DNA of 64,000 nt from Escherichia phage CMSTMSU, in the sequence record MH494197.1; one strand, 5' to 3'. Each line of letters starts with the position of its first letter. Position 1 is the stretch's first letter. The position numbers and the translations under genes are program-made. Shown piece by piece: positions 1 to 54,230 of this stretch. The notes below the pieces were generated by a model that did not search any database, was not told where the DNA came from, and saw nothing but the letters and a program-made list of their open reading frames with translations.

Positions 1-267
1 ACTTTCAGTATCCATAACAGTGACCGAACCGCGTTTAGTACTTGCATCGTAATAAATTGTCGTGCTACCTTTTTCGTCTTCTTCATGGAACGGCCCGTTT
101 TTAAATGCTTCTGGCTGGATCTCTAAATCCTTTAAAACAATCTCGCCAGTACTTTCATTGGTCATCGCTACAGTGCACTGAATGAATTTTTCACTACTTA
201 CATCTAACGACGCATTAACAGCGAAAGAGGAAACAGATAAAGCCGTGGCGATGATTGCAATTTTCAT
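1..267 (-). CDS. secreted hypothetical protein, 3' end outside window
   Basis: Minus-strand ATG (A at 267) preceded by AAGGATAATCAA; N-terminus MKIAIIATALSVSSFAVNA resembles a cleavable signal peptide; frame open to window edge, so absent from ORF track. Confidence 0.5.
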   Translation of the reverse strand, partial: MKIAIIATALSVSSFAVNASLDVSSEKFIQCTVAMTNESTGEIVLKDLEIQPEAFKNGPFHEEDEKGSTTIYYDASTKRGSVTVMDTES

Positions 268-310
268 TTGATTATCCTTAGTTACGGGAACCGCTCTTGC
301 GATGTAAAAT

Positions 311-338
311 ATTATACAGTACTAAAAACTATTATCAA
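311..338 (-). promoter_or_regulatory. sigma70-type early promoter (read on minus strand: TTGATA-16-TATAAT)
   Basis: Member of the repeated element GATGTAAAA(C/T)ATTATAC...TTGCAAGTACTTT seen 7-8 times in 0.3-5 kb; lies just upstream of CDS 1..267. Confidence 0.5.
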
Positions 339-677
339 GTACTTTATGATTTTTATAAAACATTTCAGCAGTGATATTTTACCCGTTGGCTGTACTTTAT
401 CCAGAATTTTTGATGTCCGGCCGTCCAAATGAATATGATCCGTAAACCGTAAACCAGTAGTTACCCTCAGTGTTTACATGTACAGCATAATAGGGAACGC
501 CCGCGATTCATCACTAGTAAAGTGTGCTACCGTTCCGTTACATTCGCAGACGTTGATTTGATTTGTTCAAGCATTTTATTATTCCTTAGTTACCGTGGGA
601 ACTGCTCCTATGCAAAACATTATACGCGTTTAAAACTAATTGCAAGTATTTTAATAAAAGTATTTGAAAAATAGTTG

Positions 678-706
678 TTGACAAGTGCATCCAGTACTGG
701 CATAAT
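678..706 (+). promoter_or_regulatory. sigma70-type promoter, plus strand (TTGACA-17-CATAAT)
   Basis: Hexamers at 678-683 and 701-706 with CAGTACTG in the spacer; no ORF of 60 aa or more downstream before hairpin at 784-817. Confidence 0.45.
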
Positions 707-783
707 TACTACATCAAGACGAAACAGTCACTAACCCACCGGGTGCATAGATCCGTCTATTAAATGATTCAGTACTGAAAAGT

Positions 784-817
784 AACGGGAGTTATTATCT
801 CCCCGTTGTTATTTTGT
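784..817. terminator. hairpin terminator, probably bidirectional
   Basis: ACGGGAG-TTATTAT-CTCCCCGT stem-loop flanked by T/A runs; follows minus-strand ORF 909..1013 and a short plus-strand transcript. Confidence 0.45.
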
Positions 818-908
818 GGTATAAACAGAAGTCGCCTTTATTTGCTACGCCGCCAGTGTAACGCGAGGAATAGTCACCCGACTTCTGCTATTACCAGTGT
901 ATCATCAT

Positions 909-1013
909 TCAATTCGCGCAAACGGCTGGATCTTGTACGCCGATTTTGTCGGCATGTTCCCGCATAGATTTAACCAGTGCTTCCAGTTGGGAAAGAGTAG
1001 TGATATTAGCCAT
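909..1013 (-). CDS. small hypothetical protein (34 aa)
   Basis: Minus-strand ATG directly downstream of promoter 1063..1090; translates MANITTLSQLEALVKSMREHADKIGVQDPAVCAN; below ORF-track length cutoff. Confidence 0.3.
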   Translation of the reverse strand: MANITTLSQLEALVKSMREHADKIGVQDPAVCAN

Positions 1014-1062
1014 TGTATTTTCTCATTACCGTGGAGAACCATTTCTCCCTTTGATGTAAAAC

Positions 1063-1090
1063 ATTATACAGTACTGAAAACTAATTGCAA
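1063..1090 (-). promoter_or_regulatory. sigma70-type early promoter (minus: TTGCAA-16-TATAAT)
   Basis: Plus-strand ATTATA at 1063-1068 and TTGCAA at 1085-1090; followed on the transcript by conserved leader hairpin GGAGAA..TTCTCC. Confidence 0.55.
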
Positions 1091-1097
1091 GTACTTT

Positions 1098-1355
1098 TTA
1101 ATATTGTTTGTCGTCGTCTTCCTCGATGAATTGACCGACGAAATGATCTACTTTCGCTTTGAGGCTTTTATAATCTTCTTCTACTTCCTTTAAACGTTCC
1201 GTAGTATTCCAGTGCCTCAACATATGCGGCCTCAGCCGTTTTCTCACGCATAGCTAAATTCATTCCACGCGTTTCATCAAATAGCCAAAACCATCGGTGC
1301 ATTCACTGATAGACAATGATTTGTTTAACACATTGTACTTTATTACTTTACTCAT
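1098..1355 (-). CDS. hypothetical protein, frame breaks
   Basis: Minus-strand ATG at 1355 after promoter 1405..1432; translates MSKVIKYNVLNKSL...; continues in shifted frames to stop near 1098. Confidence 0.3.
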
Positions 1356-1404
1356 TAGATAACCTCAGTAAAGGCGGGAACTATTACCCGCCTCGATGTA
1401 AAGT

Positions 1405-1432
1405 ATTATACGCTTTTAAACTTAGTTTGCAA
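1405..1432 (-). promoter_or_regulatory. sigma70-type early promoter (minus: TTGCAA-16-TATAAT)
   Basis: Same conserved element; followed by leader hairpin GGCGGGTAATAGTTCCCGCC. Confidence 0.55.
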
Positions 1433-1443
1433 GTACTTTTAAA

Positions 1444-2034
1444 TTAATATTCGATTGATTCTACTACGCCATCAATAACATTGAATTGATACTCGTTTCA
1501 ATCAGTGCCGTAATGTTTTCCAGTAGTGAATTGATCCTCATATGCATTCTCTAAATCACGGTACAACTTGCGGGACAATTCACGAATAGTGTCAGTGAGT
1601 AGTTCCTCAAGCTCATTAACTAACGTTTTTGTTTTGCGGTTAAATCCAGTGTAAGCCGATTCAATGTACCCGCTTACAGTATTCTTGAGTAGTGGGAGTG
1701 CGAACGCTTTACACTCATCGCCAAACCATCTTCATTCAGCAAGTGACGGATTGAGCGATTAGTTAATGCTTTACCTTGCGTAAAACTTCACTGCGTCAAC
1801 GTGGTCAGTACTGATTGATGCACCGTCCCCGGGACCAAAAGCCACTGAATCGTAAATCAGCGTCATTAATGCCATATTCCGGTAGTACTGTTTCAGTATT
1901 CATTTCACTTTCAGAAAAATAATCATCGTTTAAGTTTTTTCACGTTCCCGAACCAGTTCGATAGCTGACGTTTGTTGTTCTGCGTTCAATTCAGAAAAAT
2001 CCATAACGAAAGTAGTAGTAGTGATAGTTTTCAT
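1444..2034 (-). CDS. hypothetical protein (~195 aa), several frame breaks
   Basis: Minus-strand ATG at 2034 behind GAGGG; N-terminus MKTITTTTFVMDFSELNAEQQ; open frames continue in alternating frames to about 1444. Confidence 0.3.
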
Positions 2035-2171
2035 TTTGTAACCCTCATTCAGTAGTTGATGTAAGTATTATACGCTTTAAAAACGTCAAACTATTTTATC
2101 AGGGAGTTTTGTGCCTATTCCTCGGCTACTTAACGGAAGTTACTTATTTGTTCCCCGTCCTGATGTAAAAC

Positions 2172-2199
2172 ATTATACGCCTTTAAACATAGTTTGCAA
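2172..2199 (-). promoter_or_regulatory. sigma70-type early promoter (minus: TTGCAA-16-TATAAT)
   Basis: Conserved element copy. Confidence 0.5.
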
Positions 2200-2241
2200 G
2201 TACTTTTAAAAATAGTTTTCAGTACTGAATATTAAAAAGTA

Positions 2242-2269
2242 TTGACAGCATTATCAGTACTAATATAAT
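2242..2269 (+). promoter_or_regulatory. sigma70-type promoter, plus strand (TTGACA-16-TATAAT)
   Basis: Consensus hexamers; CAGTACT in spacer; a 40-codon Cys-rich ORF (MTTANPRCNCNCN...) follows. Confidence 0.45.
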
Positions 2270-2695
2270 TCCCATGACAACAGCTAACCCACGGTGCAAT
2301 TGTAACTGTAATAAACTTTTTCTAGATACACTTCCGCACCCTATGGGCTACGGCTTATCTGCCAATGAATACATTATGCCAGTACTGACAAAATAAGTCA
2401 ATACCGGCAATTGTAAAGATTTGTAAACTGCTTATACTGCAATCGCGTCCGTGCTATAATAATAATAAGTGCTATGGTGTGACTTACCTTTTATTTCAGT
2501 ACTGAATGAATCCGAACGATTTGCATATGATGTTAATTTAAAGTACTTTGATTTGTTGATACGTTACACCACAGATCCGCGTAAGTAGTTTTATTAGTGG
2601 TAGTATCTTTACGGTTTTAACTTCAGTCATATACATATTAGTCATTTTTATTACTCCGAGTTATAGGGGAACTATTCCCGCTCTCGATGTAAAAC

Positions 2696-2723
2696 ATTAT
2701 ACGCTTTTAAACTTAGTTTGCAA
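2696..2723 (-). promoter_or_regulatory. sigma70-type early promoter (minus: TTGCAA-16-TATAAT)
   Basis: Conserved element copy; followed by leader hairpin GGGAATAGTTCCCC and a 35-codon ORF (MTNMYMTEVKTVK...). Confidence 0.55.
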
Positions 2724-2750
2724 GTACTTTTATTCAAGTACTGCAATCTT

Positions 2751-2991
2751 TTAGTACGGTACACGGTCACGCGGTTGCTTTCGGTCGAGCTTTATTTCTA
2801 CCACTCGACGCGATACACTATCAGGACTTTTCAACGCCGCTAACCAGTACTGTAATGATCTGGCTGTACTACGCTTTACAATGGCCCAACGTTTACCACG
2901 TTCCGATTGTACGCCCATATCTTTAAACGTTGCCCGTCCGGCGTGCTGCGATCCGAGCTTGTTCACGCGTCGCAAAATACTTAATATTCAT
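2751..2991 (-). CDS. hypothetical basic protein in a locally GC-richer segment
   Basis: Track ORF 2751..2975 plus upstream ATG at 2991 (MNIKYFATREQARIAARRTGN...) joined by one frame break; Arg/Lys-rich. Confidence 0.4.
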
Positions 2992-3347
2992 GTTGTTCTT
3001 ATCGTTGGTGTATGAATAAACACTATTATAAAGTACTATCATCGTGCAATAGTACTTTAAATCTATTCTATTACATTCCAACCATTGCAGCACGGATCGA
3101 TAGTGCTATATTTGAATCCGTCCGGTGTTTTTCTTGTCCAGTCTGTTCTAAAAAATAACATCATATGACGGGCCGCATCATTGCGATTAGTGCTATCGTT
3201 AATAAAGTCCCAACTGGTATAATGATTCATCGTTATTAATCCAAAGGCTTACATTCCAATGAGTTTTGTTTTTGTGACCTAAGAACATTTTGATTTAGCC
3301 ATTTTTAATCTTATATAGTGGGGAACTATTTCACCCTGATGTAAAAC

Positions 3348-3375
3348 ATTATACGCTTTTAAACTTAGTTTGCAA
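3348..3375 (-). promoter_or_regulatory. sigma70-type early promoter (minus: TTGCAA-16-TATAAT)
   Basis: Conserved element copy; followed by GGGTGAAATAGTTCCCC leader. Confidence 0.55.
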
Positions 3376-3576
3376 CTTTATTAAACTTATTTGTAATTTT
3401 GCACTGTCAGCCCATACTGTGAAACGATGCATATTATCCCATGCATCTTGTTTTAAATTTAAACTGTGCAATTCCTCAGTAGTTGCTATCCCCATTGGCT
3501 TACTACACACCGCGAAATTTTTCTCCATGTACTGATAAACCATCGTTAAATCATTTGAGATCATTACATGGATCAT
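3349..3576 (-). CDS. hypothetical protein (75 aa)
   Basis: Track ORF on the early strand; a 47-codon ORF (3599..3742) upstream may be the same gene split by a frame break. Confidence 0.35.
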   Translation of the reverse strand: MIHVMISNDLTMVYQYMEKNFAVCSKPMGIATTEELHSLNLKQDAWDNMHRFTVWADSAKLQISLIKLQTKFKSV

Positions 3577-3774
3577 TGAATCAGCTATGAAGTAGCGTAT
3601 TGTTCACGCACGGCAACGGTTCCCGATAAGCTGTAAATGTGAATTTTACAGTTTCAGCCGGAAGACCTTTCATTTCACGGAAGTTAACCGTGTTAAGCAT
3701 GATTTTATTGATTTGAGTCGCCATCGTTTTAATCTCTTAATGTAGCGGGAAGTGTTCCTGCCTCGATGTAAAAC

Positions 3775-3799
3775 ATTATACGCTTTTATCAGTATGCAA
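3775..3799 (-). promoter_or_regulatory. sigma70-type early promoter variant (13-bp spacer)
   Basis: Conserved GATGTAAAACATTATACGCTTTT element with ATGCAA in place of TTGCAA. Confidence 0.35.
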
Positions 3800-4063
3800 G
3801 TACTTTCTACAAATACTTTTAAAATAGTTTTCTCTATATAGGGAACTATTATTCAGTACTGCAACCATCCGTGGGAACTATCTTTCTATAGTAGTACTAT
3901 TATTCAGTACTGAATCAATCCACCAAATCATCCTGATACCCGTAAAACGGCCTCAGACGCATTCTAACGCATTAATACACCTAAGCTATACATTTGCACC
4001 ATTCCAATCTTGGCTGGGCCGTTTAAACGCGTTAAATTATTTTCAATTATTTTGTTTTAGCTA

Positions 4064-4090
4064 TTGACTCAGTACTAAAAAGCGTATAAT
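4064..4090 (+). promoter_or_regulatory. sigma70-type promoter, plus strand (TTGACT-15-TATAAT)
   Basis: Consensus hexamers; downstream transcript has 9-bp inverted repeat AGGGTGCGG...CCGCACCCT and no long ORF. Confidence 0.45.
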
Positions 4091-4096
4091 TACACA

Positions 4097-4270
4097 TAGA
4101 CGCGAGAAAGGAAACCAGAGGGTGCGGAATTACGCCCAAAATTCAAGATATAAAAAAAGGATACACCGCACCCTAGCAGGTTAACGCACTTTCTAGTACT
4201 GAAATATAGTAACATAGTCCGCTGATAGCAAGCAATTAAAACTTTTTCATCCGGTATTGCTTTATTTTTC
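4097..4270 (+). ncRNA. candidate small RNA
   Basis: No ORF between promoter 4064..4090 and stem AGCAAT..ATTGCT followed by TTATTTTT; contains TACGCCCAAAATTC motif. Confidence 0.2.
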
Positions 4271-4284
4271 CAGTACTGTATAAT
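4257..4284 (+). promoter_or_regulatory. promoter, plus strand (TTGCTT-16-TATAAT)
   Basis: ATTGCTTTA upstream also matches my recollection of the T4 MotA-box core; TATAAT at 4279-4284. Confidence 0.4.
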
Positions 4285-4379
4285 AGTTCCATCGTCGAGA
4301 AAGACTCAGCCCACCGTATAGTTACGCCCAAAATTCAGTACTGAAAATTTTAAAAATATCCGTCCGTGCGCGTTGTTCC

Positions 4380-4640
4380 CCCAGTTTATAAGATAATGAT
4401 TCCAGACTCCAGAACGGTTCATCCCACGCGGTAGGGGAACTATTGGAAAACAAAATAAAATTTTGATTTAGCCGTCTATACTTCCAGACGTGTAACCATC
4501 TAGCCGTTTAGCTGTCCAAACGTCAGCCATCCAGCCATCCAGAAATCTAGCCGTTTAGCCGTCCAGATGGATAGCCATTTCCAGACTTCTGAGGGCTAGA
4601 CATATCTACGTCCAAAATCCATCCGTGGTAACTACGCCCA
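4380..4640. repeat. cluster of short direct repeats (TCCAGA; TAGCCGTTTAGCYGTCCA)
   Basis: TCCAGA five times and TAGCCGTTTAGC(C/T)GTCCA twice in ~200 bp; locally GC-richer; no ORF. Confidence 0.5.
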
Positions 4641-4949
4641 AAATCCGTCAGTACTATACCATAGATCATCTTTGGAGTATTCAGTACTGCCATCAGCCCC
4701 TCACATGTTACCCTAGGAGGATGAAGATCACCGCGGTACTGAATACTGTTAGAGGGAATCCACCAGCTTGGTGGTATAATCGTTTAGATTAAAATCAGTA
4801 CTGACACCATTCTGTTAATATCAGTACTGTTATTGATTTTCATATGAGGTTCAAAAAGATGTACCCACCACAGGAGGAACTATCTTTTCTGTACTGTCTC
4901 ACAGGAGGTAGAGTAAATGAATCGTTCGCAACTCATCTCTATGTAGAAC

Positions 4950-4977
4950 ATTATACAGTACTGAATCATAATGTCAA
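4950..4977 (-). promoter_or_regulatory. sigma70-type early promoter (minus: TTGACA-16-TATAAT)
   Basis: Matches the conserved early promoter element; transcript runs leftward into the ORF-free repeat region. Confidence 0.5.
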
Positions 4978-5189
4978 TAGCTTTCTTTCATTATTCAGTA
5001 CTGATATTCTTGAGAACTACCCGACTACAAACATCATTATATCCCACAAATCATAAACGTCCCAACGTAAATTTCAACTTTCGAAGATCCAACTTTATTT
5101 CATAGGTACTCCAAAATTTTAGGATCGAGATTTAGGATGGAGTACTAACCAACTTTTGCTGAGCTCTGGATATTAAGGTGAAAGTAATA

Positions 5190-5500
5190 ATTCAGTAATT
5201 AATCATTGGTGATTACTTTTGATTACATTTGATGTAATTTGCAAAATGGAAAAGGAGCTTGAAACTAGTACGGCAGACTTCCTCTGCCTACTAGGTGCTG
5301 GTTTCATCTATCGGAGGGAAATGGATTAACCTTAGCAATACGTAACTGAATACGTTCTTGATTAAACGTGCACATTCCTGTACTCTATTACACTCTAGTA
5401 CACTCTAGTACTCAATACTGATCACTACAATGATTATAAATGATTACTTAAATGTTTATATATGATTACTTATGACTACATATGATTAGGGTTTACTGGG
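5190..5500. repeat. TGATTAC short-repeat cluster with adjacent direct repeat
   Basis: TGATTAC recurs about seven times in two sub-clusters; TACACTCTAGTAC is duplicated in tandem at 5390-5415. Confidence 0.4.
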
Positions 5501-5816
5501 AGAATCTAGTGATCGCATTTGTCCAGCTGAATTTTAACATATATAACATATGTTAAAGCCTGTCCAATGCTTCTGCGGAGCTTCTGTCTATATGTTGAAT
5601 TACTTCCTATATATAAGCATTAACATATAGTAGTACTGATTATGCTGTACATTCTCTTTAATATTATAAGGGTCTATAGCAATCTCGGTACATCTGTTAA
5701 ATGCATATCTATTAAATGCCAGTACTATTATAGATCTAATCCATGCTTGGTCAGTCGGTGGTAGTTTACTTATATAGTACTCTTTATAGTTTTTATGTTC
5801 TGCATAGTATACCTTA

Positions 5817-5996
5817 TTATTTCAAAGTACCATATAGTACTCTTAATAGGAAGTAGTACGTATTAGAGATATCATTACTAGTTAAAACAATCTTTGTACA
5901 CATATTAAATTCGTATTGAGTCATTGCTGGGATTAAATTGTTAACCCATGCTTGTTCGTTTTCTTTGAGTTTACTTATATAGAAGTCTTTATACAT
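5817..5996 (-). CDS. small-ORF array member
   Basis: Translates MYKDFYISKLKENEQAWVNNLIP...; below ORF-track cutoff; degenerate copies lie further left. Confidence 0.35.
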   Translation of the reverse strand: MYKDFYISKLKENEQAWVNNLIPAMTQYEFNMCTKIVLTSNDISNTYYFLLRVLYGTLK

Positions 5997-6228
5997 AGTA
6001 TTATCTCTATTAATATGATAGTACTAGTGTTAGTACTGAGCACAATTGTTCTTTATAGTTCTTAGGGTATATAGAATCTTTTATGCACTCATTGAAGTGC
6101 CATAGGTATAATCTTGGGTCGCATTCTTTATATATTTTACGCCATAGGTATATATCTTGGGTCGCATTCTTTATATATTTTTTACGGGGACGAATGTTAG
6201 TTTTCTTATATAGAAGTCTTTGTGTTCT

Positions 6229-6438
6229 TTATTCATATAGGAATAGTATACCTATGATGCCTGAGTACATGTTAGTACTGTTATTATTGGCGTTTGCGTT
6301 TAAAGTCATTTGAATACAATTGTTGTAGCATAATCTGCCGAAATATGTATCAGTACTTAAAGGTGCAGTAGTCCTTAGAAACATTTGTTCTGTGGGGCTG
6401 AGGTGTTTGGAGTAGAATTCTTTATGTTCATTATTCAT
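6229..6438 (-). CDS. small-ORF array member (69 aa)
   Basis: Track ORF MNNEHKEFYSKHLSPTEQMFLR...; close paralogue of 7020..7226; start overlaps upstream stop. Confidence 0.5.
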   Translation of the reverse strand: MNNEHKEFYSKHLSPTEQMFLRTTAPLSTDTYFGRLCYNNCIQMTLNANANNNSTNMYSGIIGILFLYE

Positions 6439-6634
6439 AGATATATAGGAGTGCCATTATGTTGGAGTATAGTTTATTGTTGTCATTTTCTTGCAGTGCT
6501 TGTATAGTACTACGTATACAGTTATTATAGCATATTTTTGTGAAATTATTTTGTAATTTCATTTTCATTGGTTTTGCTTTATAGAATGATTGTTTTGTGG
6601 GACTAAGATGATTTATGTAGAACTCTTTATACAT
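6431..6634 (-). CDS. small-ORF array member (67 aa)
   Basis: Track ORF MYKEFYINHLSPTKQ...; shares CYNNCIR and C-terminal hydrophobic YE motif with neighbours. Confidence 0.5.
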   Translation of the reverse strand: MYKEFYINHLSPTKQSFYKAKPMKMKLQNNFTKICYNNCIRSTIQALQENDNNKLYSNIMALLYIYE

Positions 6635-6651
6635 GTTAGTACCTTAGTGCT

Positions 6652-6837
6652 TTAGTGTCTGTATATAAGTAATAGTAAGAATACGTACTGCACCTGTTCA
6701 TCTTTAGTATTGAGTACTGTACGTATTGCGTCATTAAACAAAAATATAGTACTTGGGTCATTAGAATTTAAGGGGTTTACGGGGACGGCGTGTTTGTAGT
6801 TCCCTTTAACAAATTGTATATAGTATTCTCTATGCAT
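6652..6837 (-). CDS. small-ORF array member (61 aa)
   Basis: Track ORF MHREYYIQFVKGNYK... Confidence 0.45.
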   Translation of the reverse strand: MHREYYIQFVKGNYKHAVPVNPLNSNDPSTIFLFNDAIRTVLNTKDEQVQYVFLLLLIYRH

Positions 6838-6838
6838 A

Positions 6839-7027
6839 TCAGTACCTATATATTAGGGCGAGAATGTAGTACAGTTCATATGGAATGTAATTTGGGGTGA
6901 TAGCACACTGTGTATGGTAAATGAATTGTTGGGTATTTTTCTTATCCTTGATATCTATTGGGTTTAGTGGTATAAGCATTTGGGAGTTTAGTTCCAGATG
7001 GTTTAAGTAGAATTCTTTGTTATTCAT
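6839..7027 (-). CDS. small-ORF array member (62 aa)
   Basis: Track ORF MNNKEFYLNHLELNSQ... Confidence 0.45.
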   Translation of the reverse strand: MNNKEFYLNHLELNSQMLIPLNPIDIKDKKNTQQFIYHTQCAITPNYIPYELYYILALIYRY

Positions 7028-7226
7028 AGAAGAATATTAGTCCCATTACGCCTGAGTACTGAATATTTTTGTTATTGTTTTCTAAAGCTTCTAGAGTAAT
7101 ACGTATACAATTATTAAAGCAATCTCTGGCGTGTGGTGTATCTAAACGTAAAGGTGATACACTCCTTAGAAACATTTGTTCTGATGCACTGAGGTGTTTG
7201 GTGTAGAATTCTTTCTGTTCGTTCAT
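7020..7226 (-). CDS. small-ORF array member (68 aa)
   Basis: Track ORF MNEQKEFYTKHLSASEQMFLR...; AAGAGG 6 nt upstream of ATG; paralogue of 6229..6438. Confidence 0.55.
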   Translation of the reverse strand: MNEQKEFYTKHLSASEQMFLRSVSPLRLDTPHARDCFNNCIRITLEALENNNKNIQYSGVMGLIFFYE

Positions 7227-7236
7227 ATTGGCCTCT

Positions 7237-7425
7237 TTAGTACACGAAAGCTAGGTACAGTGTATGATACAGTACTCGATGATAGCTATCAAAATCTAGT
7301 ATACATGCTTTAGTGCACATAGTAAAGTACACTTTATCGTTTTGAGCATTGATACCGCGAGGTTTATCTAATAGATTAGTACTGAGGTACATTGGGAAAT
7401 ATTTTGTGTAGTATTCTTTATGCAT
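7237..7425 (-). CDS. small-ORF array member
   Basis: Track ORF 7237..7470 trimmed to internal Met giving family-type start MHKEYYTKYF. Confidence 0.45.
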   Translation of the reverse strand: MHKEYYTKYFPMYLSTNLLDKPRGINAQNDKVYFTMCTKACILDFDSYHRVLYHTLYLAFVY

Positions 7426-7807
7426 ATTAGTACCTGAATATAAGTAGGATAGTGTTATATAATTGGTCATAGCTACTACTATTTTCTATACTGCGTTCTA
7501 TGCAATTATTGAATCCCAGTACTGCCAAATCGTTATCCGGGGGACTTTATATCTGGCGTAGTGTTCAAATATACTGGGAGAAATTGTGTGTAGTATTCTT
7601 TGTGCATATTAGTACCTATATATTAGTAAAAGGATGTGATACAGTACTCGATTATAGTCTTCAATATATATCGAGGATTTAGTGCACTGAATGAAGTAGT
7701 CTTTTTCGTAGTTTTTTCTATACCCAATGGTTCTGTTGGTAGAAGGTGTTGGAGATACATTGGGAGTTTCTCTATGTAGTATTCTTTGTGGTTATTCATA
7801 TTATGTG

Positions 7808-7981
7808 TTATTTCGTGAAAACAAGGGTTAGTACTGCATAGTACAAGTCATACGTATCTTTAGGGTTAATAGCACCTTTAATACATTCTTTCATTACTTC
7901 ATTATAGATAATTTTAGTACTGAATGTATTGGATGTTACTATATCGGAATTAAGGTACGAGAGGTAGAATTCTTTATACAT
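7808..7981 (-). CDS. small-ORF array member
   Basis: Track ORF 7808..8044 trimmed to internal Met giving MYKEFYLSYL; longer form also possible. Confidence 0.4.
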   Translation of the reverse strand: MYKEFYLSYLNSDIVTSNTFSTKIIYNEVMKECIKGAINPKDTYDLYYAVLTLVFTK

Positions 7982-8080
7982 AGTTTGAAATATACGTAAT
8001 GAGGTGATGAAATTTCTTATCAGTACTGATAAGTTCCTGTACATGTTTTGTTAGTTTGTACGCGTTTTATAGAGTCCGGA

Positions 8081-8458
8081 TTATCGATTACAGTACTGTA
8101 CATGAATAGATCTTCTTCTGATAATTCTTTGCCGGTAATTCTTTGAGGAATTGCAGTACTGTATCAGTTTCGTTAGTACGTTGCTTTTGGAAGAAGTGCA
8201 TGTTATCGTGTATTTTTCTGAACCCATGCAGTACATATCTCCGATTTGGAATTGTGCAGTACTGATATCATGGGTGCTATTACAATTCCCGAAGAAGTAT
8301 ACATTCCCGAAAGATAGAATTATAGTGCACGGGATATTATCCATGTGTATATAGATAGATGCATTCTTTAGTGCTTTTGTGCTGGTATTAGTACTCAATA
8401 CTTTTAAATCAGTATTATAGATATTAATAAAAGCAAGAGCTATATTATTTTTCTTCAA
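8081..8458 (-). CDS. hypothetical protein inside the array (125 aa)
   Basis: Track ORF only; lacks the family motif and is low-complexity. Confidence 0.2.
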   Translation of the reverse strand: MKKNNIALAFINIYNTDLKVLSTNTSTKALKNASIYIHMDNIPCTIILSFGNVYFFGNCNSTHDISTAQFQIGDMYCMGSEKYTITCTSSKSNVLTKLIQYCNSSKNYRQRIIRRRSIHVQYCNR

Positions 8459-9207
8459 GTACGATTTGAGGTTCTTAGATACGAGAACATTTCTGGATTT
8501 TTCTTTTTATTTCGTTTCTTTAGTATATTCGGGTGATACGTATAAGATGATGTAACTGATTCTGCTTGAATACTGTTGAGGTATTTAAAGTGCTTAAGGT
8601 ATTGTTTGCTGTGTGCATTAAGTTTCATTTGGTTTCCTTTATACAGATGCGAGTGCGAGGATTTCCCTGAAGGGATTATCTTTTGTTAGTGCGTGATGAA
8701 TGCAGCTATTGAGATTAATATTTTTAGTACTGTTAGTTGCCGTTGTAGTACTTCACGAAGGTGTCGTACATGAAACGGTCTTTAATGCTTATGTGTTCTA
8801 TATAGTATTCTTGCATATTATTCCTTACATAGAGATGAGTTTCAGTACATCAATATACATATAACGTTCAGATGACTGTACACGGGTAGTGATAATCTCA
8901 ATCGATATATTTTAATTCCATGTGCAGATGATTGATGGTGCTGAATAAATGAGTTGTGCATACTTTGTTCTATGTGGTTTAGTTTATTGAAGTAGTACTC
9001 AAAAGTGTTCATGTCTACCTTAGATTGAGATTAGTTTAAGTACTTCTCTGTATGTGTACTTTTCGTTTTGTGCTTCTACTGTACATGATAGTAGGTATCG
9101 TTTTTTATCTCTTTTGTTCCCGACTGTGTAGTACCTTTGGAATTTATTATAGTTGTATCTATCTTTGTGCTGGAGTTTATAGATATAGAATTCTTGCATA
9201 GAGTACC

Positions 9208-9393
9208 TTAGATTGCTATCAGTTTCAGTACTTCAATATATGTGCGGTACTCTGCTTTAATTAAATTTGTACACACTGTAAGGGAATTTCTTTGTATAAG
9301 TTTATTGCCGCTTTTATACGCATTTCTCCACACATAGAGATGAGATCTTTCAGGCATAGATAGTTTATTTGTATAGTACTCAAATGTATTCAT
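9208..9393 (-). CDS. small-ORF array member (61 aa)
   Basis: Track ORF MNTFEYYTNKLSMPERSHL...; similar broken copy at about 8990. Confidence 0.45.
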   Translation of the reverse strand: MNTFEYYTNKLSMPERSHLYVWRNAYKSGNKLIQRNSLTVCTNLIKAEYRTYIEVLKLIAI

Positions 9394-9995
9394 ATATTAC
9401 CTCAAATAGAGATTAGTTTAAGTACTTCTCTGTATGTGTACTTTTCGTTTTGTGCATCTCTTGTGCTTGTATATAGGTATCCTCGACGATATTTGTTGCT
9501 CCCGTTCTTGTAGTTGAATTCGAACTTATTGTAGATGAATCTATCGCCGCTGTAATTTACTTAAGTACAATTCAATGCTCATAGTATTCTCTTTACATAT
9601 CAATAAGTTTCAGTACTGCTCTGTACGTGTACTTAGTTGTTAGTGCTTCTTTATAGCAATACAGAAGTAATGTTGTTTGTCTCTTATACTACCGCGTTTG
9701 TAGTACCATACATTGGAGTTGTGGGTGTACTTGTCCCTGTCGGATAGATTTTGGTAATAGTATAATATATGATTCATGGTAATGTAATTAGCCTTATTAT
9801 GTTAAAGTACTCGGTCCCCGTACACCTTGTAGAATATTATCAACTACATTTTCTTGGTGCAGGATTAATACATTCGGTGCGGTTCTTTTAAGGTTTTTAA
9901 AGTACTGTATTCTTGTTTAAGGATGAACTGTACATCTTTAGGGAGAATATCTAAGTAGTACTGGTGTATGTTCATAGTTTTCATATAGTACTCTT

Positions 9996-10181
9996 TTAGA
10001 ACTTAAAGATGAGGTTCATGATAGATAAGTACTTAGTTTCAGGAAATTGATGTTCTATTGCATAACGTGTCTCCAGTCTGAAGTCAAATTTATAAAAGGG
10101 ACTATTCATATCCATAGGTTCATTGGGAAATGAATCTCTGTATTGTTTGTGCAGCTTACTACAGTAGAATTCTTTATACAT
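9996..10181 (-). CDS. small-ORF array member (61 aa)
   Basis: Track ORF MYKEFYCSKLHKQYR... Confidence 0.45.
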   Translation of the reverse strand: MYKEFYCSKLHKQYRDSFPNEPMDMNSPFYKFDFRLETRYAIEHQFPETKYLSIMNLIFKF

Positions 10182-10182
10182 A

Positions 10183-10395
10183 TTAGTGCTCGATTAAAAG
10201 GGTTAGGATGTAATAGTATTGCATACTTTCTACCCCTTGTACAGCATTTCTTATTTTATTATTCCTGTACGAGTTCAAGAGTTTAGGACAATGTTTGAAG
10301 TTTATATAATTATTTTGTGTATACAGTAGGCTTTCTCGTAGACCTTTTGTTGGTAGTGCATCGATGTAGTACTGTTCAATGTTCATAGTGTTCAT
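10183..10395 (-). CDS. small-ORF array member, first unit (70 aa)
   Basis: Track ORF MNTMNIEQYYIDALPTKG...; abuts 9996..10181. Confidence 0.4.
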   Translation of the reverse strand: MNTMNIEQYYIDALPTKGLRESLLYTQNNYINFKHCPKLLNSYRNNKIRNAVQGVESMQYYYILTLLIEH

Positions 10396-10719
10396 AGAGC
10401 TACCAGTACTAAGATTTTTGATAATTGTTTGTTTCTATCCCGCAGATGTTGTTGTGTAAAATGCTCACTACAAGGGTATCAAGTGCATTGTTCAGCATAA
10501 GGTTACATCCAGTACTGTTATATTTTTTAGCTCAATTAGCCACGAACAATCCGCGAGAAATTTCCCGTACTCTAGTTCATTTAGCGTATTAATGTAGTAC
10601 TTAAGTGCATTTGTCATGTACAGTTCTCCTTATATTCCTTCTATAGTACATCAGTACTGAAAGGTTGTCAAGGGTTTTCTTTTTGGGGTAAATATGATAT
10701 AATGAATAAAGGAGGAAAT

Positions 10720-11866
10720 ATGTTACCTTTTGTAAGAATGGTTAAGTACGGGAATATTGCACCAGTACCGAAAAAATAAAGAAAGTTATAGCAGGATATG
10801 ATAATTTATATGTACTATATGGTGATGGTTCGCTATATGGTTGTGGAATCAATAACTATCAACAGTTAAATATTGATGGAACTGCTACACAAAATAATTG
10901 GGTACTAATTACCAATGGTGTTAGTAATGCATGGGCTGGTGGATACAATATTTTATATTTGAAAGAAGATAAATTTATAATGCACGGAACTAATGTCTCA
11001 TTAGGTTTAGGAAATACTACAATTCCATTAGGTGGAGTAGATGTAACTTCTTCATTCCCAGATATCTCTAATATTAAAATGATATCCATTGGTTTTGATT
11101 CAATGCACTATGTTAGTGCTGATGGTACAACTGTATATGGAAGAGGTATGAACACAAATGGTTCTGTTGGTTCAGGTAGTACTTACTCACAGAGTACTTT
11201 CACTTCAGTACTGAATAATGGAACTAATCAGGTTATTGATATATTTGGTAACGTTAATAATACAGTGCTTCTAACATCGAATGGTGAGCTTCGAGCATGT
11301 GGGACAAGTGCTTATGGTTCTATAGGAAATGAAACTGGTAAGTGGACATCGTTTGGTTTAAAATTATCTGGCACTAAAATAATGGGTGGTAATGGGTATA
11401 GTACGCTTGCATATACAAATTCGGGAATGTACCACTCAGGGTGGCAGTTAAATGGGGAACTAGGAAATGGTTTAGATACTAACGTACAGGTATATCCATT
11501 TCAATTTAACTCTAAAACGATAGATAGCAAGATAGATAAAATTGCCAAATCATCATCTGGGTCATATGTTAACATGTACTCAACAACAGAAGGAAAGATA
11601 TATACGACAGGTTCGTTTGGTAAAACGGGTCAACTACTGCATTGAATTTGTTCACCAATACATTAACACTTATAAATTACAATCCAGATACCGCCTCGTT
11701 GTATACGTGCACAAACTTCAGTGTTGTGTATGATGGTAATGAAACTATTGCTGTAAGTGGTAGTCCTACATATGTACCGAGGGCGTTGCCGCTAATAGAT
11801 GGACTACAATTCCATTACCCAAGTAATACTATGCCAGTACTTGATGCTGGCTTTTCTTTTGATTAA
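10720..11866 (+). CDS. leader-tagged RCC1-like repeat protein F1 (frame breaks)
   Basis: AAGGAGG then ATG; N-terminus MLPFVRMVKYGN; stop after 19 codons at an A-run (10766-10772), one extra A restores a reading colinear with paralogue 24753..25907; body = track ORFs 10959..11645 and 11642..11866. Confidence 0.7.
11833..11860 (+). terminator. intrinsic terminator between F1 and F2
   Basis: Hairpin GCCAGTA-CTTGA-TGCTGGC followed by TTTTCTTTT; same element recurs after most array genes. Confidence 0.6.
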
Positions 11867-11893
11867 ATATAGTATAATGAATAAGGAGGAATT

Positions 11894-13017
11894 ATGTTAC
11901 CTTTTGTTAGAATGTTTGATTATGGGAATATAATCGAAGTTAATAATATAAAGAAAAGTGTTGTTAGTTACACTCTTGAAATGTTTCTAATGCAAGATGG
12001 CACTGTATATGCACACGGTGAAGATTCAAACTATAATGCGGGTTTAAGTACACAGTTTGTATCGTTAGGAGCAGTTCAACAAATCACAACTGAAGTTGAT
12101 GACTTATGGTTAGGATCGTTTTCCGTTGTTATTAAAGGTGATAAAATATATGGTTCAGGTTCAACATATGCATTCACGAATTCTAATACTTTCCAACAAG
12201 GATATACTGACTGGGCTGTGTATTTCACTGGTATAGATGTTACCCAAATTAAAAAATGTTATGTGGTTATACAGCATTTATATTAATGAAAGACGGAACA
12301 CTTTATGGAAGAGGATGGAATCGAAGTGGTACATTAGGTTTAGGACATAAAAATTATGTTTCAGCGTGGACTGTACTTGACACTAATGTGGATAATATAT
12401 TTGGCGGTTACCTTGGCGATACATTGTTTAAGATTAAAAACGATGGAACTGTATATGGTTCAGGTTCAAATAACAGCTTTCAAGTTAAAGCAACATCGGG
12501 TGATGCAACCACATTTGTTCCGTTGTTTGATGATATATCTTATGATATAAAATGCAGTTTTGTTTCTGGTGTTGGTTTTGTAATGATAACATCTGATAAT
12601 AAAATATATGCAACTGGAACTACTTTTGCTGGTAGTGGTGCACATAGTAAAGTTTTTGATGTTGGTTTTACTATAGGTGATATGAGTAATATATATCATC
12701 CTGATTCGTTGGACTATTCGACTAGTGTTGTATTTTTAATTAATGCAGATACAAACAAACTAATAGCAACTGGGCATACCCATTTACGGAAGTAGTTCAA
12801 GTTCCTTCCATATTTTACAGCATTTCAAGAATTCAATTTTACATCGTTCAATTCGAATACACGATATAGTGGGTCTTTATACTGGAATACATTTTACGAA
12901 GGTAATAATGTATGGATGAATGGATATAATCCTGAAAATACGGGTGGAAAGAATTTCTCATTGTGTTCAATACCGTTAGATACTATTATTACTAAGCAAA
13001 TTGATTTACCTTTTTGA
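11894..13017 (+). CDS. leader-tagged RCC1-like repeat protein F2 (frame breaks)
   Basis: Track ORFs 11894..12286 and 12256..12795 plus tail; N-terminus MLPFVRMFDYGN; C-terminus ...TKQIDLPF matches ...FTKIDLPK of F7. Confidence 0.7.
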
Positions 13018-13087
13018 ATACTATGCCAGTACTCAAGTACTGGCTTTTATTTTATTAAATATAGTATAATGAATAAAGGAGGGAAAT

Positions 13088-14273: not shown

Positions 14274-14282
14274 GAGAAAATC

Positions 14283-15404: not shown

Positions 15405-15412
15405 TAATAGGT

Positions 15413-15440
15413 CAGTACTGAAATATGTACTGGTATTTTT
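15413..15440 (+). terminator. intrinsic terminator after F4
   Basis: CAGTAC-TGAAATAT-GTACTG hairpin followed by GTATTTTT. Confidence 0.55.
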
Positions 15441-15476
15441 GTAAATACTATATAATTTAATTACGGAGATTTTATT

Positions 15477-16653: not shown

Positions 16654-16736
16654 CATTATACCAGTACTGAAATATGTGCTGGTATTTTTTTAAATACATT
16701 ATAATTATTATATGGAGATTTTAGTTATGTTACCTT

Positions 16737-17851: not shown

Positions 17852-17861
17852 GGAGAGAAAT

Positions 17862-18960: not shown

Positions 18961-18966
18961 CATAAT

Positions 18967-18993
18967 GCCAGTACTTGATACTGGCTTTTCTTT
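18967..18993 (+). terminator. intrinsic terminator after F7
   Basis: GCCAGTA-CTTGA-TACTGGC hairpin plus TTTTCTTTGG. Confidence 0.6.
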
Positions 18994-19000
18994 GGTTAAA

Positions 19001-19023
19001 TATAGTATAATGAATAAAGGAGG
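19001..19023 (+). promoter_or_regulatory. conserved array promoter/RBS module (-10 TATAAT at 19006-19011, AAGGAGG at 19017-19023)
   Basis: Block TTAAATATAGTATAATGAATAAAGGAGG nearly identical upstream of 12 of the 17 array genes; no convincing -35 hexamer. Confidence 0.5.
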
Positions 19024-19028
19024 GAATT

Positions 19029-34654: not shown

Positions 34655-34686
34655 ATTATAGCAAAAGGGCTGACTAGTGTCAACCC
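34655..34686 (-). promoter_or_regulatory. composite hairpin terminator with embedded promoter (TTGACA-17-TATAAT)
   Basis: Minus-strand GGGTTGACACTAGTCAGCCC hairpin then TTTTGCTATAAT; -35 lies in the stem. Confidence 0.55.
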
Positions 34687-39309: not shown

Positions 39310-39384
39310 GACAATTCCTCGATTGTGGGGATGAGAAGTTCATCCCTTGATAAACATTATACAGTACTGAATGAGTTTGTCAAC

Positions 39385-54014: not shown

Positions 54015-54230
54015 AGTTAATTCCTCATTTAATTTAAAGGGCGGGAACGCAGTGACGAGTACGATTATGCTGTCTTTCCTTTCACTGCATTCCCTTTGAT
54101 ATAAACATTATACAGTACTGATATCTTATGTCAAGTATTAATCACCAAAAATCATCAGATACCCAAACCAACCCACACAGATGACTAAGCTAACAATACC
54201 AAAGATAATCTCTAAAGTCATGTTACATCC

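What the first reader, a model, noticed from the sequence alone, without database searches (positions are those of the whole stretch)
280..4460. Early promoter family with a conserved leader hairpin (GGGAACTATT motif)
Seven to eight minus-strand promoters share GATGTAAAACATTATACGCTTTTAAACTTAGTTTGCAAGTACTTT almost verbatim. About 10-25 nt into each transcript comes a short hairpin built around AATAGTTCCC. Further isolated copies of GGGAACTAT occur at about 3841, 3873 and 4435. This placement fits an operator or an RNA-level control site.
Basis: partly seen in the sequence, partly recalled or inferred. Interest (0 to 1): 0.55.

Follow-up and report, generated by a model that had tools for sequence, protein, structure and literature searches.

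The report
Phage early promoters with leader RNA hairpins
The start of this window is the early-gene block of a giant E. coli phage, where each small gene has its own strong host-type promoter followed by a short GC-rich RNA hairpin just ahead of the ribosome-binding site; the hairpin is real, conserved by compensating mutations across several phage genera, undescribed, and most likely protects or insulates the early messenger RNAs.

Summary
Window 1-5290 is the inner end of the ~20.7-kb direct terminal repeat of an Asteriusvirus-like (Rak2-like) jumbo coliphage. It is packed with small minus-strand early genes.

The promoter family is real. There are ten sigma-70-type promoters, and nine share TATAATRYTTTRCAT. 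The 45-mer is near-verbatim in only four.

The leader hairpin is also real, but the window shows it poorly. The window sequence is riddled with deletions, mostly in homopolymers, that truncate the G and C runs and break ORFs.

In related phages (G17, A4, EJP2, a Klebsiella RaK2-like phage, Salmonella PHA46, and rV5-like slur16) the hairpins are 7-12 bp with 3-5-nt loops. They start about 12 nt after the -10 hexamer and end 18-23 nt before the AUG. They occur on the sense strand only and never without a promoter. There are 48 distinct complementary arm pairs and 53 G·U pairs, with no A·C mismatches in the 80 family stems. That points to RNA rather than a DNA operator.

AATAGTTCCC is the loop plus the 3' arm. 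The three isolated GGGAACTAT copies are not members.

The most likely function is a 5'-UTR stabiliser/insulator. A regulator-binding or antitermination role is not excluded. No Rfam family matched, and none of the phage genome papers I checked describes it.

The parts
311..338 (-). Early promoter 1 (TTGATA-16-TATAAT, AGTACT next to both hexamers)
267..303 (-). Leader 1. The hairpin is degraded in the window (G17 orthologue GGGGGAgcggtTCCCCC). ATG at 267.
619..646 (-). Early promoter 2 (TTGCAA-16-TATAAT)
574..611 (-). Leader 2. The hairpin is degraded in the window (relatives GGGGAgcggtTCCCC). ATG at 574.
1063..1090 (-). Early promoter 3 (TTGCAA-16-TATAAT with CAGTACTG in the spacer)
1029..1051 (-). 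Leader hairpin 3, GGAGAAatggTTCTCC (variant arms that still pair)
   Evidence: (20.5 bits)
1405..1432 (-).
1371..1394 (-). Leader hairpin 4, GAGGCGGGtaatagttCCCGCCTT. This is the best-preserved copy in the window and contains AATAGTTCCC.
   Evidence: -15.3 kcal/mol, z -2.9; 22.3 bits
2034..2095 (-). Promoter 5 and its short hairpin-less leader ('class B': TATAATACTTACATCAAC...). The spacer is shortened in the window compared with G17.
2172..2199 (-). Early promoter 6 (2 mismatches to the 45-mer). It lies in tandem upstream of promoter 5.
2104..2164 (-). Long leader 6 with a different, interrupted hairpin (ACGGGGAAC...CUUCCGU)
2696..2723 (-).
2657..2686 (-). Leader hairpin 7, GGGAAtagTTCCC inside a longer interrupted stem. 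ATG at 2645.
3348..3375 (-). Early promoter 8 (4 mismatches to the 45-mer)
3320..3336 (-). Leader hairpin 8, degraded in the window (G17 GGTGGGGAAtagTTCCCCACT)
3775..3799 (-). Early promoter 9. The spacer is 3 nt shorter than in G17, probably a deletion error.
3744..3762 (-). Leader hairpin 9, GCAGGAAcacTTCCCGC (G17 AGCGGGAAcacTTCCCGCT)
3841..3881 (+). Two isolated GGGAACTAT copies, upstream of promoter 9, inside a roughly 50-bp direct duplication that G17 and A4 lack. They have no pairing partner and are not part of a leader.
4435..4443 (+). Isolated GGGAACTAT copy in the non-coding region. In relatives it forms the 5' arm of a different small hairpin (UCCCCuaccgcguGGGGA).
4950..4977 (-). Consensus promoter (TTGACA-16-TATAAT, 12/12) nearest the inner end of the terminal repeat. 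Its leader carries an unrelated hairpin (4941-4909).
3800..5292 (.). Conserved non-coding end of the direct terminal repeat. The G17 repeat boundary (record position 20668) maps to window position ~5292.
39328..39369 (-). Extra family member outside the repeat: CAGTACTG-TATAAT promoter plus leader hairpin GGGATGAacttcTCATCCC
54043..54120 (-). Extra CAGTACTG-TATAAT promoter with a longer leader hairpin (GGGAAUGCAGUGA...UCACUGCGUUCCC, -24 kcal/mol)

Best explanation
The region is the early-gene block in the terminal repeat of a Rak2-like jumbo coliphage. Each small gene is a cassette with these parts, in order:
- an A-rich upstream tract;
- AGTACT-TTGCAA/TTGACA as the -35;
- a 16-nt spacer, often ending in CAGTACTG;
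- TATAAT;
- a conserved start region GTTTTACAT(C/A);
- a 3-7-nt 5' tail;
- a 7-12-bp GC-rich stem-loop with a purine-rich 5' arm (GGGGAGAA type) and a pyrimidine-rich 3' arm (UUCUCCCC type);
- a 4-12-nt A/U-rich linker;
- the Shine-Dalgarno sequence and the AUG.

Shown here: the hairpin is a structure of the sense-strand RNA that is kept by selection.

Inferred: it works as a protective and insulating 5'-UTR stem-loop. By sitting a few nucleotides from the 5' end and directly against the ribosome-binding site, it would hinder 5'-end-dependent attack and scanning by RNase E (and RppH). Together with a bound ribosome it would cover the whole short leader. It would also lock away the C/U-rich segment that could otherwise pair with the Shine-Dalgarno sequence. 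The result would be that dozens of very short early mRNAs are stable and uniformly translatable from the first minute of infection. The motif AATAGTTCCC is simply the commonest loop (AUAG/UAG) plus 3' arm (UUCCC).
For: Identity and context.
- Window 1-6000 is 86-90% identical to Asteriusvirus genomes.
- The G17 terminal repeat is 1-20668, the same length as published for Sharanji (PMC11895373).
- Terminal-repeat genes of the related phage PA5oct are highly transcribed early (PMC7318152).
- RpoD-like promoters with UP-like elements have been predicted in this block in Rak2-like phages (PMC5259590).

Position.
- GC-rich hairpins start 8-17 nt (mode 12) after a -10 hexamer. Counts, sense strand versus antisense: G17 26 of 56 versus 1 of 45; A4 22 versus 2; EJP2 22 versus 1; Klebsiella phage 12 versus 2; PHA46 11 versus 0. 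These raw counts include a few non-family hairpins, which were removed for the curated set.
- Hairpins end 4-12 nt before the Shine-Dalgarno core and mostly 18-23 nt before the AUG (n=81).
- All strong sense-strand model hits in G17, checked by inspection, are promoter-proximal. None stands alone between genes.

Structure under selection.
- 80 unique hairpins give 48 distinct complementary arm pairs. Every one of the 8 inner pair positions shows three or more standard pair types.
- Own arms pair at 100% (by construction) against 79 +/- 1% after swapping arms between copies.
- On an ungapped alignment of 21 hairpins, 8 of 10 pairs change on both sides. 86.7% of cells pair versus 77.5% in shuffles (0 of 500 reach it) and 60-70% when partners are slid.

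RNA, not DNA.
- There are 53 G·U/U·G pairs and no A·C 1x1 mismatches in the 80 family stems.
- 49 of 80 fold better as sense than as antisense.
- Loops and distal stems are unrelated between genera, for example GGGGAUACAuagUGUAUCCCU and GGGAAUGAAucaUUCAUUCCC in the Klebsiella phage.

Insulation.
- The mean unpaired probability of the SD-to-AUG segment is 0.74 with the full leader and 0.62 when the 5' arm is removed.

Established knowledge (recalled, not retrieved): 5'-terminal stem-loops stabilise E. coli mRNAs (ompA 5' UTR; Emory, Bouvet and Belasco 1992), and structures obstruct RNase E scanning from the 5' end (Richards and Belasco 2019). RNase E is a major actor in T4 early mRNA decay (PMC3014915).
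Against: - No transcription start, half-life or expression data exist for these phages. The 5' tail of 3-7 nt is predicted only, and it is at or beyond the 2-4 unpaired nucleotides reported to be compatible with full protection by a 5' stem-loop.
- A hairpin-less promoter class works next to it (window 2072; most early promoters of GAP32 and many of PHA46). The hairpin is therefore not required for early expression.
- The strong bias to a purine 5' arm and a GGGG.../...CCCC base, conserved across genera, is more sequence conservation than a purely structural role needs. It could mark a binding site.
- Individual folding z-scores are modest, -1.1 to -4.6.
- The insulation effect in silico is small.
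- A mismatch test that treated G:T and A:C equally gave only 37 versus 22 (p = 0.07). However, the 22 came almost entirely from unrelated AT-rich hairpins and from bulges miscounted as mismatches.
Confidence: 0.5

Rival explanations
1. The hairpin is the binding site of a phage-encoded (or host) RNA-binding protein. That protein would time the shut-off or decay of early messages, in the way T4 RegA represses translation, T4 gp43 binds an operator hairpin, or T4 RegB directs cleavage. All early genes would then be switched together.
For: - The base of the stem (GGGG(A)/(U)CCCC) and the purine/pyrimidine asymmetry of the arms are conserved across genera (GC 385 versus CG 36; AU 222 versus UA 25).
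- The hairpin sits directly next to the ribosome-binding site at a fixed distance, where a bound protein would block the 30S subunit.
- 20-30 copies per genome would form a regulon.
- T4 uses such post-transcriptional control of early mRNAs (PMC3014915).
Against: - Loops and upper stems are not conserved between genera. No candidate protein was identified.
- Hairpin-less early promoters coexist in the same block.
- GGAG, where present, is base-paired, and pairing protects against RegB in T4 (PMC3014915).
Confidence: 0.2
2. The hairpin acts during transcription. It would be either a nascent-RNA pause signal or an antitermination signal (like lambda nut/boxB or HK022 put). As a pause signal it would couple the first ribosome to RNA polymerase. 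As an antitermination signal it would let polymerase read through the terminators scattered in the early block.
For: - The hairpin is strictly tied to promoters and never found alone between genes.
- Intrinsic terminators lie between some early genes.
- The hairpin would emerge from polymerase as it reaches the Shine-Dalgarno region (geometry).
Against: - There is no boxA-like element and no conserved GNRA-like pentaloop. Loops are 3-5 nt with free sequence.
- The element is far smaller than put.
- Almost every gene has its own promoter, so read-through is not needed.
- No N-like protein was identified.
Confidence: 0.1
3. The inverted repeat is a DNA operator at +5 to +25. It would be bound by a dimeric phage repressor that blocks early transcription later in infection.
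For: It is an inverted repeat just downstream of the transcription start of every promoter in the class, a classic roadblock position.
Against: - 53 G·U-type positions break the DNA symmetry but not the RNA helix, while no A·C is seen in the 80 family stems.
- Arm sequence, arm length (7-12 bp) and spacing (3-5 nt, rarely more) vary from copy to copy. A single DNA-binding protein could not tolerate that.
- Distal arms differ completely between genera.
Confidence: 0.05
4. The hairpin has no function of its own. It is carried along because the whole promoter-leader cassette has been copied repeatedly in front of new early genes.
For: - Promoter, start region, hairpin and linker are copied as one block. 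Many copies within a genome are near-identical, for example 21 of 80 with inner arm GGGGGAA.
- Relatedness inflates shuffle statistics, as the tool itself warns.
Against: - 48 distinct arm pairs remain complementary.
- Changes on both sides occur at 8 of 10 pair positions.
- The architecture persists with unrelated stem sequences in Klebsiella, Salmonella and rV5-like phages at the same distances.
Confidence: 0.1

Closest known systems
5'-terminal stabilising stem-loops of E. coli mRNAs (ompA 5' UTR hp1; synthetic 5' hairpins)
   Same: A short, stable hairpin near the 5' end of the message, with sequence largely free. It is combined with a strong ribosome-binding site as a second protective element, and it acts in the RNA.
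   Different: - Here it is a multi-copy cassette (20-30 per genome) fused to one promoter family.
- The predicted 5' tail is 3-7 nt rather than 0-2 nt.
- The arms are strongly purine (5') and pyrimidine (3').
- The distance to the Shine-Dalgarno sequence is fixed.
- No stabilisation has been measured.
Predicted RpoD-like early promoters of Rak2-like jumbo phages (CBB, GAP32; PMC5259590) and sigma-70 promoters of rV5 (PMC3606486)
   Same: The same phage group and the same genome block of short hypothetical genes. Near-consensus -35/-10 hexamers with an upstream A-rich element.
   Different: Those papers list promoters only. Neither mentions the leader hairpin or the AGTACT flanks. GAP32 itself mostly has the hairpin-less leader.
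T4 early promoter family and T4 post-transcriptional control of early mRNAs (RegB, RegA; PMC3014915)
   Same: Dozens of early promoters with conservation far beyond the two hexamers. Early messages are treated as a class at the RNA level, and RNase E is important for their decay.
   Different: T4 early leaders are not known (to my recollection) to carry a common hairpin. RegB needs an unpaired GGAG, and here GGAG, where present, is in the stem.
Lambda nut boxB / N antitermination
   Same: A small hairpin in the early transcript shortly after an early promoter.
   Different: boxB has a 5-bp stem with a conserved pentaloop, an adjacent boxA, and two or three copies per genome. None of these features is seen here.
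Polypurine 'STAB-SD' / SP82 5' stabilisers of Bacillus (recalled from memory)
   Same: A purine-rich, Shine-Dalgarno-like sequence close to the 5' end of a phage early RNA or another stable mRNA.
   Different: Those act unpaired, by binding a 30S subunit. Here the purine run is base-paired.

Membership tests
Sigma-70 (RpoD-type) early phage promoter | -35 TTGACA-like and -10 TATAAT-like hexamers 16-18 nt apart | tested here: met
   Window: 10-12 of 12 matches with a 16-nt spacer at 338, 1090, 1432, 2199, 2723, 3375 and 4977. G17: ten 12/12 promoters on the gene strand in 1-20 kb.
Sigma-70 (RpoD-type) early phage promoter | Transcribed early by unmodified host polymerase | not testable with these tools
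   Supported only by analogy: RNA-seq of terminal-repeat genes in PA5oct (PMC7318152) and a prediction for CBB (PMC5259590).
5'-terminal mRNA-stabilising stem-loop (ompA hp1 type) | Stable stem-loop within a few (0-4) unpaired nucleotides of the RNA 5' end | tested here: inconclusive
   The hairpin base lies 12 nt (mode) after the -10 hexamer. That gives a tail of 3-7 nt if +1 is the A of the C-A step 8 nt downstream. No mapped start site exists.
5'-terminal mRNA-stabilising stem-loop (ompA hp1 type) | Structure rather than sequence matters | tested here: met
   48 distinct arm pairs, changes on both sides at 8 of 10 pairs, and unrelated stems in other genera. The GGGG/CCCC base, however, is conserved.
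5'-terminal mRNA-stabilising stem-loop (ompA hp1 type) | Lengthens mRNA half-life in an RNase E-dependent way | not testable with these tools
   Needs half-life measurements.
Lambda-type nut site (boxA + boxB) | 5-bp stem with a conserved GNRA-like pentaloop and an adjacent boxA | tested here: not met
   Stems are 7-12 bp. Loops are 3 nt (35 cases), 4 nt (28) or 5 nt (15) with many different sequences. No conserved flanking box exists other than the transcription-start region.
Intrinsic terminator / attenuator | GC-rich hairpin followed directly by a U tract | tested here: not met
   Hairpins are followed by ACUAA.../CUGGUAA..., not by U runs. The terminator scan does not report them as minus-strand terminators; one plus-strand (antisense) call overlaps leader hairpin 3 at 1033-1048. 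A similar hairpin that does have a T run serves as a true terminator at G17 5713-5731.
RNase III processing site | About 20 bp or more of double-stranded RNA | tested here: not met
   7-12 bp.
DNA operator (palindrome bound by a dimeric repressor) | Conserved half-site sequence and spacing, with symmetry at the DNA level | tested here: not met
   Arm sequences, lengths and spacing vary. There are 53 G·U positions and no A·C in the 80 family stems. The test that treated both mismatch types equally was confounded by non-family hairpins.
Any curated RNA family (Rfam 15) | Match to a covariance model | tested here: not met
   No hit at gathering score in the window. In G17 1-32 kb at E <= 1 there was only a chance tmRNA fragment.

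The most novel reading that the evidence does not exclude
The hairpin is a recognition tag that marks the whole early-gene class. A phage protein (or a host factor recruited by the phage) would read the GGGG/CCCC-based stem next to the ribosome-binding site. That would let it switch all early messages off together, protect them while host mRNA is destroyed, or modify polymerase so that it reads through terminators. This would be a regulon defined by an RNA structure, shared by Rak2-like and rV5-like phages.
Probability: 0.2. Interest if true: 0.65.

Novelty: new variant of a known kind. Interest (0 to 1): 0.4.

Why it matters
Jumbo phages of the Rak2 group, and the rV5-like phages, are being developed for therapy. 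Yet how they take over the cell is unknown, and their early genes are almost all 'hypothetical'.

A defined promoter-leader cassette gives three things:
- A precise annotation rule for early transcription units, covering start site, leader and true start codon.
- A testable idea of how a phage keeps its own very short early messages alive and evenly translated while host RNA is degraded.
- A compact natural part (strong promoter, insulating hairpin, ribosome-binding site) that could be reused in expression design.

If the hairpin turns out to be a protein-binding tag, it would identify the regulator of the early-to-middle switch.

Tried and rejected
- **Rfam**: nothing.
- **First alignment of 80 leaders with MAFFT** (A1): the 5' arms were out of register for 3-nt versus 4-nt loops, so RNAalifold recovered only 5 pairs. 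I replaced it with a loop-anchored ungapped alignment (A3) and a loop-anchored count in Python.
- **Alignment A4 from the model search**: it mixes sense and antisense hits of the same sites, so I did not use it for pair counts.
- **Symmetric mismatch test** (G:T versus A:C treated alike): it gave 37 versus 22, which looked weak. Inspection showed the A:C cases were unrelated AT-rich hairpins after chance TATAATs, or bulges forced into a gapless stem. The test as built is not decisive and I report it as such.
- **Isolated GGGAACTAT copies as extra hairpins**: rejected. They have no 5' partner, no promoter and no model hit.
- **Terminator, RNase III site, nut site, N4-type promoter hairpin**: rejected on anatomy (see the membership table).
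- **GAP32 as a further source of covariation**: its early leaders are mostly hairpin-less.
- **Literature**: no description of the leader hairpin or of the AGTACT excess was found.
- **Not attempted**: a search for Srd-, RegB- or N-like proteins in the phage, scans of IMG/VR or metagenomes, and structure prediction of early proteins.

Full report
**What the sequence is.**
- Window 1-6000 matches Asteriusvirus jumbo coliphages (A4, Ecwhy_1, G17, Sharanji, phAPEC6) at 86-90% identity.
- In G17 the homologous stretch is part of a block of about 53 small, leftward-transcribed hypothetical genes filling record positions 1-19,040. A 1.9-kb non-coding gap follows.
- The first 20,668 bp of the G17 record recur at its right end. 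This is the direct terminal repeat, the same length as published for Sharanji (PMC11895373).
- The G17 repeat boundary maps to window position ~5292. The finding therefore lies in the inner end of the terminal repeat.
- In the related phage PA5oct, terminal-repeat genes are highly transcribed early (PMC7318152). RpoD-like promoters with UP-like elements have been predicted in this block in Rak2-like phages (PMC5259590).
- Calling these 'early promoters' is thus a well-founded inference, not a measurement.

**Quality of the window.**
- Compared with G17 and A4, the window carries 110 single-base deletions against 14 insertions. Of the 110, 73 are in homopolymers, and there are also many 2-5-base deletions.
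- ORFs in 1-7000 are fragments of 25-98 aa where relatives have intact genes of 30-200 aa.
- Over the whole window only 30% lies in stop-free stretches of 150 codons or more.
- The window is therefore an error-rich, deletion-biased copy. This matters because the element consists of G runs and C runs.

**The promoters.**
- TATAATRYTTTRCAT occurs nine times, all on the minus strand (0.44 expected). A tenth, variant promoter has its -10 at 2072.
- The consensus scan scores them 10-12 of 12 with a 16-nt spacer. G17 has ten perfect 12/12 promoters on the gene strand.
- The shared features are an A-rich upstream tract, AGTACT immediately before the -35, often a second (C)AGTACT(G) immediately before the -10, and the start region GTTTTACAT(C/A).

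**The hairpin, in the window.**
- GGGAACTAT is enriched, 6 against 0.38 expected. In three leaders it is the loop plus 3' arm of a hairpin.
- Only three of the nine family leaders fold well: 1394-1371 at -15.3 kcal/mol (z -2.9), 2686-2657 at -9.9, and 1048-1033 at -7.2 to -7.6.
- The covariance model built later finds just two sites in the window.

**The hairpin, in relatives.**
- The same leaders in G17 and A4 carry clean stems. Examples are GGGGAGAAauggUUCUCCCC, GGUGGGGAAuagUUCCCCACU, GAGGCGGGGAauggUUCCCGCCUU and AGCGGGAAcacUUCCCGCU, at -10 to -17 kcal/mol.
- I collected early regions from G17, A4, the divergent Asteriusvirus EJP2, a Klebsiella RaK2-like phage (RCIP0023), Salmonella PHA46, Cronobacter GAP32 and the rV5-like phage slur16. 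They were found through a shared 203-aa early protein.

I enumerated every GC-rich hairpin (at least 6 consecutive pairs) on both strands and asked how many start 8-30 nt after a TATAAT or TACAAT.

| Phage | Sense strand | Antisense strand |
|---|---|---|
| G17 | 26 (of 56) | 1 (of 45) |
| A4 | 22 | 2 |
| EJP2 | 22 | 1 |
| Klebsiella RCIP0023 | 12 | 2 |
| PHA46 | 11 | 0 |

- These raw counts include a few hairpins that are not family members. I removed those before building the curated set.
- Distances cluster at 10-14 nt, with a mode of 12.
- Downstream, the hairpin ends 4-12 nt before the Shine-Dalgarno core and mostly 18-23 nt before the AUG. The median leader is 45 nt (n=81).
- All strong sense-strand model hits in G17, checked by inspection, are promoter-proximal. 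Genes without their own promoter have no hairpin.
- The motif is therefore both enriched and strongly position-biased.

**Covariation.**
- Eighty unique hairpins have stems of 7-12 bp and loops of 3-5 nt, with two exceptions. Mean energy is -13.5 kcal/mol, and there are 48 distinct arm pairs.
- Counting pairs outward from the loop, every one of the eight inner positions shows three or more standard pair types, including GC to AU, CG and UA exchanges.
- Swapping 3' arms between copies lowers pairing from 100% (by construction) to 79 +/- 1%, with a maximum of 83% in 2000 permutations.
- On an ungapped alignment of the 21 four-loop hairpins, 8 of 10 pairs have changes on both sides. 86.7% of cells pair, against 77.5% in shuffles (0 of 500 reach it) and 60-70% with slid partners.
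- Relatedness of the copies inflates such figures. But the Klebsiella phage keeps the same architecture with unrelated distal stems: GGGGAUACAuagUGUAUCCCU, GGGAAUGAAucaUUCAUUCCC and GGAGAUUCCAuuauucUGGAAUCUCC.
- The rV5-like phage slur16 has promoter-hairpin-SD leaders as well, for example GGCGGGAAaaaUUCCCGCC 29 nt before the AUG of the homologous gene.

**RNA or DNA?**
- The stems contain 53 G·U/U·G pairs and no A·C 1x1 mismatches. A symmetric DNA site would collect both kinds equally.
- 49 of 80 hairpins fold better as sense RNA, against 29 that fold better as antisense.
- A second test that treated both mismatch kinds alike gave only 37 versus 22. Those A:C cases were almost all unrelated hairpins or bulges, so that test is uninformative rather than contrary.
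- Variable arm length and spacing also argue against a single DNA-binding protein.

**Further anatomy.**
- The 5' arm is almost pure purine and the 3' arm almost pure pyrimidine (GC 385 versus CG 36; AU 222 versus UA 25).
- The base of the stem is GGGG(A)/(U)CCCC in all genera.
- The 3' arm is complementary to Shine-Dalgarno sequences. Removing the 5' arm in silico lowers the unpaired probability of the SD-to-AUG segment from 0.74 to 0.62, a small effect.
- A hairpin-less leader class (TATAATACTTACATCAA..., about 25 nt) coexists with the hairpin class. It is seen at window 2072, in many PHA46 promoters and in most GAP32 promoters. The hairpin therefore modulates expression rather than enabling it.

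**The isolated copies.**
- The copies at 3841 and 3873 lie 60-100 bp upstream of promoter 9, inside a roughly 50-bp direct duplication that G17 and A4 lack.
- The copy at 4435 lies in the conserved non-coding stretch. In relatives it is the 5' arm of a different small hairpin.
- None has the family promoter or pairing partner, and none matches the model.

**Mechanism.**
- Shown: a sense-strand RNA hairpin under purifying and compensatory selection, fixed between the 5' end and the ribosome-binding site of early messages.
- Inferred: it protects and insulates. Known biology makes this the most economical reading. 5' stem-loops stabilise E. coli mRNAs and obstruct RNase E (recalled from the ompA work and from RNase E scanning studies). 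RNase E drives the decay of T4 early mRNA (PMC3014915).
- Against it: the predicted 5' tail of 3-7 nt is borderline for full protection, and the conserved stem base hints at recognition by a factor.
- Rough weights: stabiliser/insulator 0.5, regulator-binding site 0.2, pause or antitermination signal 0.1, passenger of cassette duplication 0.1, DNA operator 0.05.

**Known or new.**
- No Rfam family matches.
- The genome papers I checked for CBB, Sharanji, PA5oct and rV5 list promoters and terminators but no leader hairpin.
- The element is a new variant of a known kind, the 5'-UTR stem-loop. What is unusual is that it is a promoter-linked cassette present 20-30 times per genome and shared across several genera of large virulent enterobacterial phages.

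Noticed in passing
whole window; also L001-L006, L008: The palindrome AGTACT is 10-17 times over-represented in every Rak2-like phage sampled. In the window it occurs 231 times against 21.7 expected, and CAGTACTG 52 times against about 1. It is found in coding sequence in all three frames as well as in non-coding DNA. In the rV5-like phage slur16 it is not enriched (5 against 7.4). GGTACC and CGTACG are almost absent. Early promoters carry AGTACT twice, just upstream of the -35 and just upstream of the -10. I found no published description.
   Followed up: partly
window 1-64000: The window looks like an error-rich sequence. It has 110 single-base deletions against 14 insertions relative to its relatives, mostly in homopolymers. 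ORFs are fragmented, and only 30% of the window lies in stop-free stretches of 150 codons or more. Promoter spacers at 2072 and 3780 are also shortened.
   Followed up: yes
window 3800-5292: This is the conserved 1.5-kb non-coding inner end of the direct terminal repeat. It holds iteron-like repeats (GACGGCTAAA/GACGGCTAGA, TCTGGATGGCT), four copies of AATTTTGG(G/A)CGTA, many CAGTACTG sites, a 12/12 consensus promoter at 4977-4950, and a conserved plus-strand promoter with its -10 near 4279. The G17 repeat boundary maps to ~5292, where homology to G17 breaks for about 110 bp. It may be a packaging site or an origin region.
   Followed up: partly
window 2330-2375 (-); G17 17537-17553; EJP2; GAP32 x2; Klebsiella RCIP0023: A non-coding core of about 45 nt, TTCATTGGCAGATAAGCCGTAGCCCATAGGGTGC, is nearly invariant across three genera. 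It sits just downstream of an extended -10 promoter (TTGACT-17-CATAAT). The predicted small hairpins show no covariation because the sequence does not vary. It is a candidate small RNA or binding site, with no Rfam match.
   Followed up: partly
window -10 hexamers at 34660, 37344, 41795, 44824, 48401 (-); 59040 less clearly: A second promoter class has its -35 TTGAC inside the stem of a terminator-like hairpin (GGGTTGACTTCGGTCAGCCCTTTTGC-TATAAT). These are terminator-promoter fusions with short, hairpin-less leaders. GAP32 and G17 have the same arrangement.
   Followed up: no
L007 (slur16) 12430, 14954, 15671, 19050, 20399: rV5-like (Vequintavirus) phages share homologous early genes with Rak2-like phages. 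They also carry the same promoter, GC-hairpin, Shine-Dalgarno leader architecture, for example GCGGGAAtacTTCCCGC.
   Followed up: partly
window 39328-39369 and 54043-54120 (-): Two further CAGTACTG-TATAAT promoters with leader hairpins lie outside the terminal repeat. The hairpin at 54094-54043 is much longer (-24 kcal/mol). I did not examine the genes they drive.
   Followed up: no
window 2104-2199 (-) and G17 17229-17369: Tandem promoters sit in front of the conserved 203-aa early gene. The upstream promoter has a leader of about 110 nt with two different hairpins, and that leader runs through the downstream promoter.
   Followed up: no
window 3841-3912: A direct duplication of roughly 50 bp (CAGTACTGAATAATAGT...) is absent from G17 and A4. 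It creates the two neighbouring GGGAACTAT copies.
   Followed up: partly
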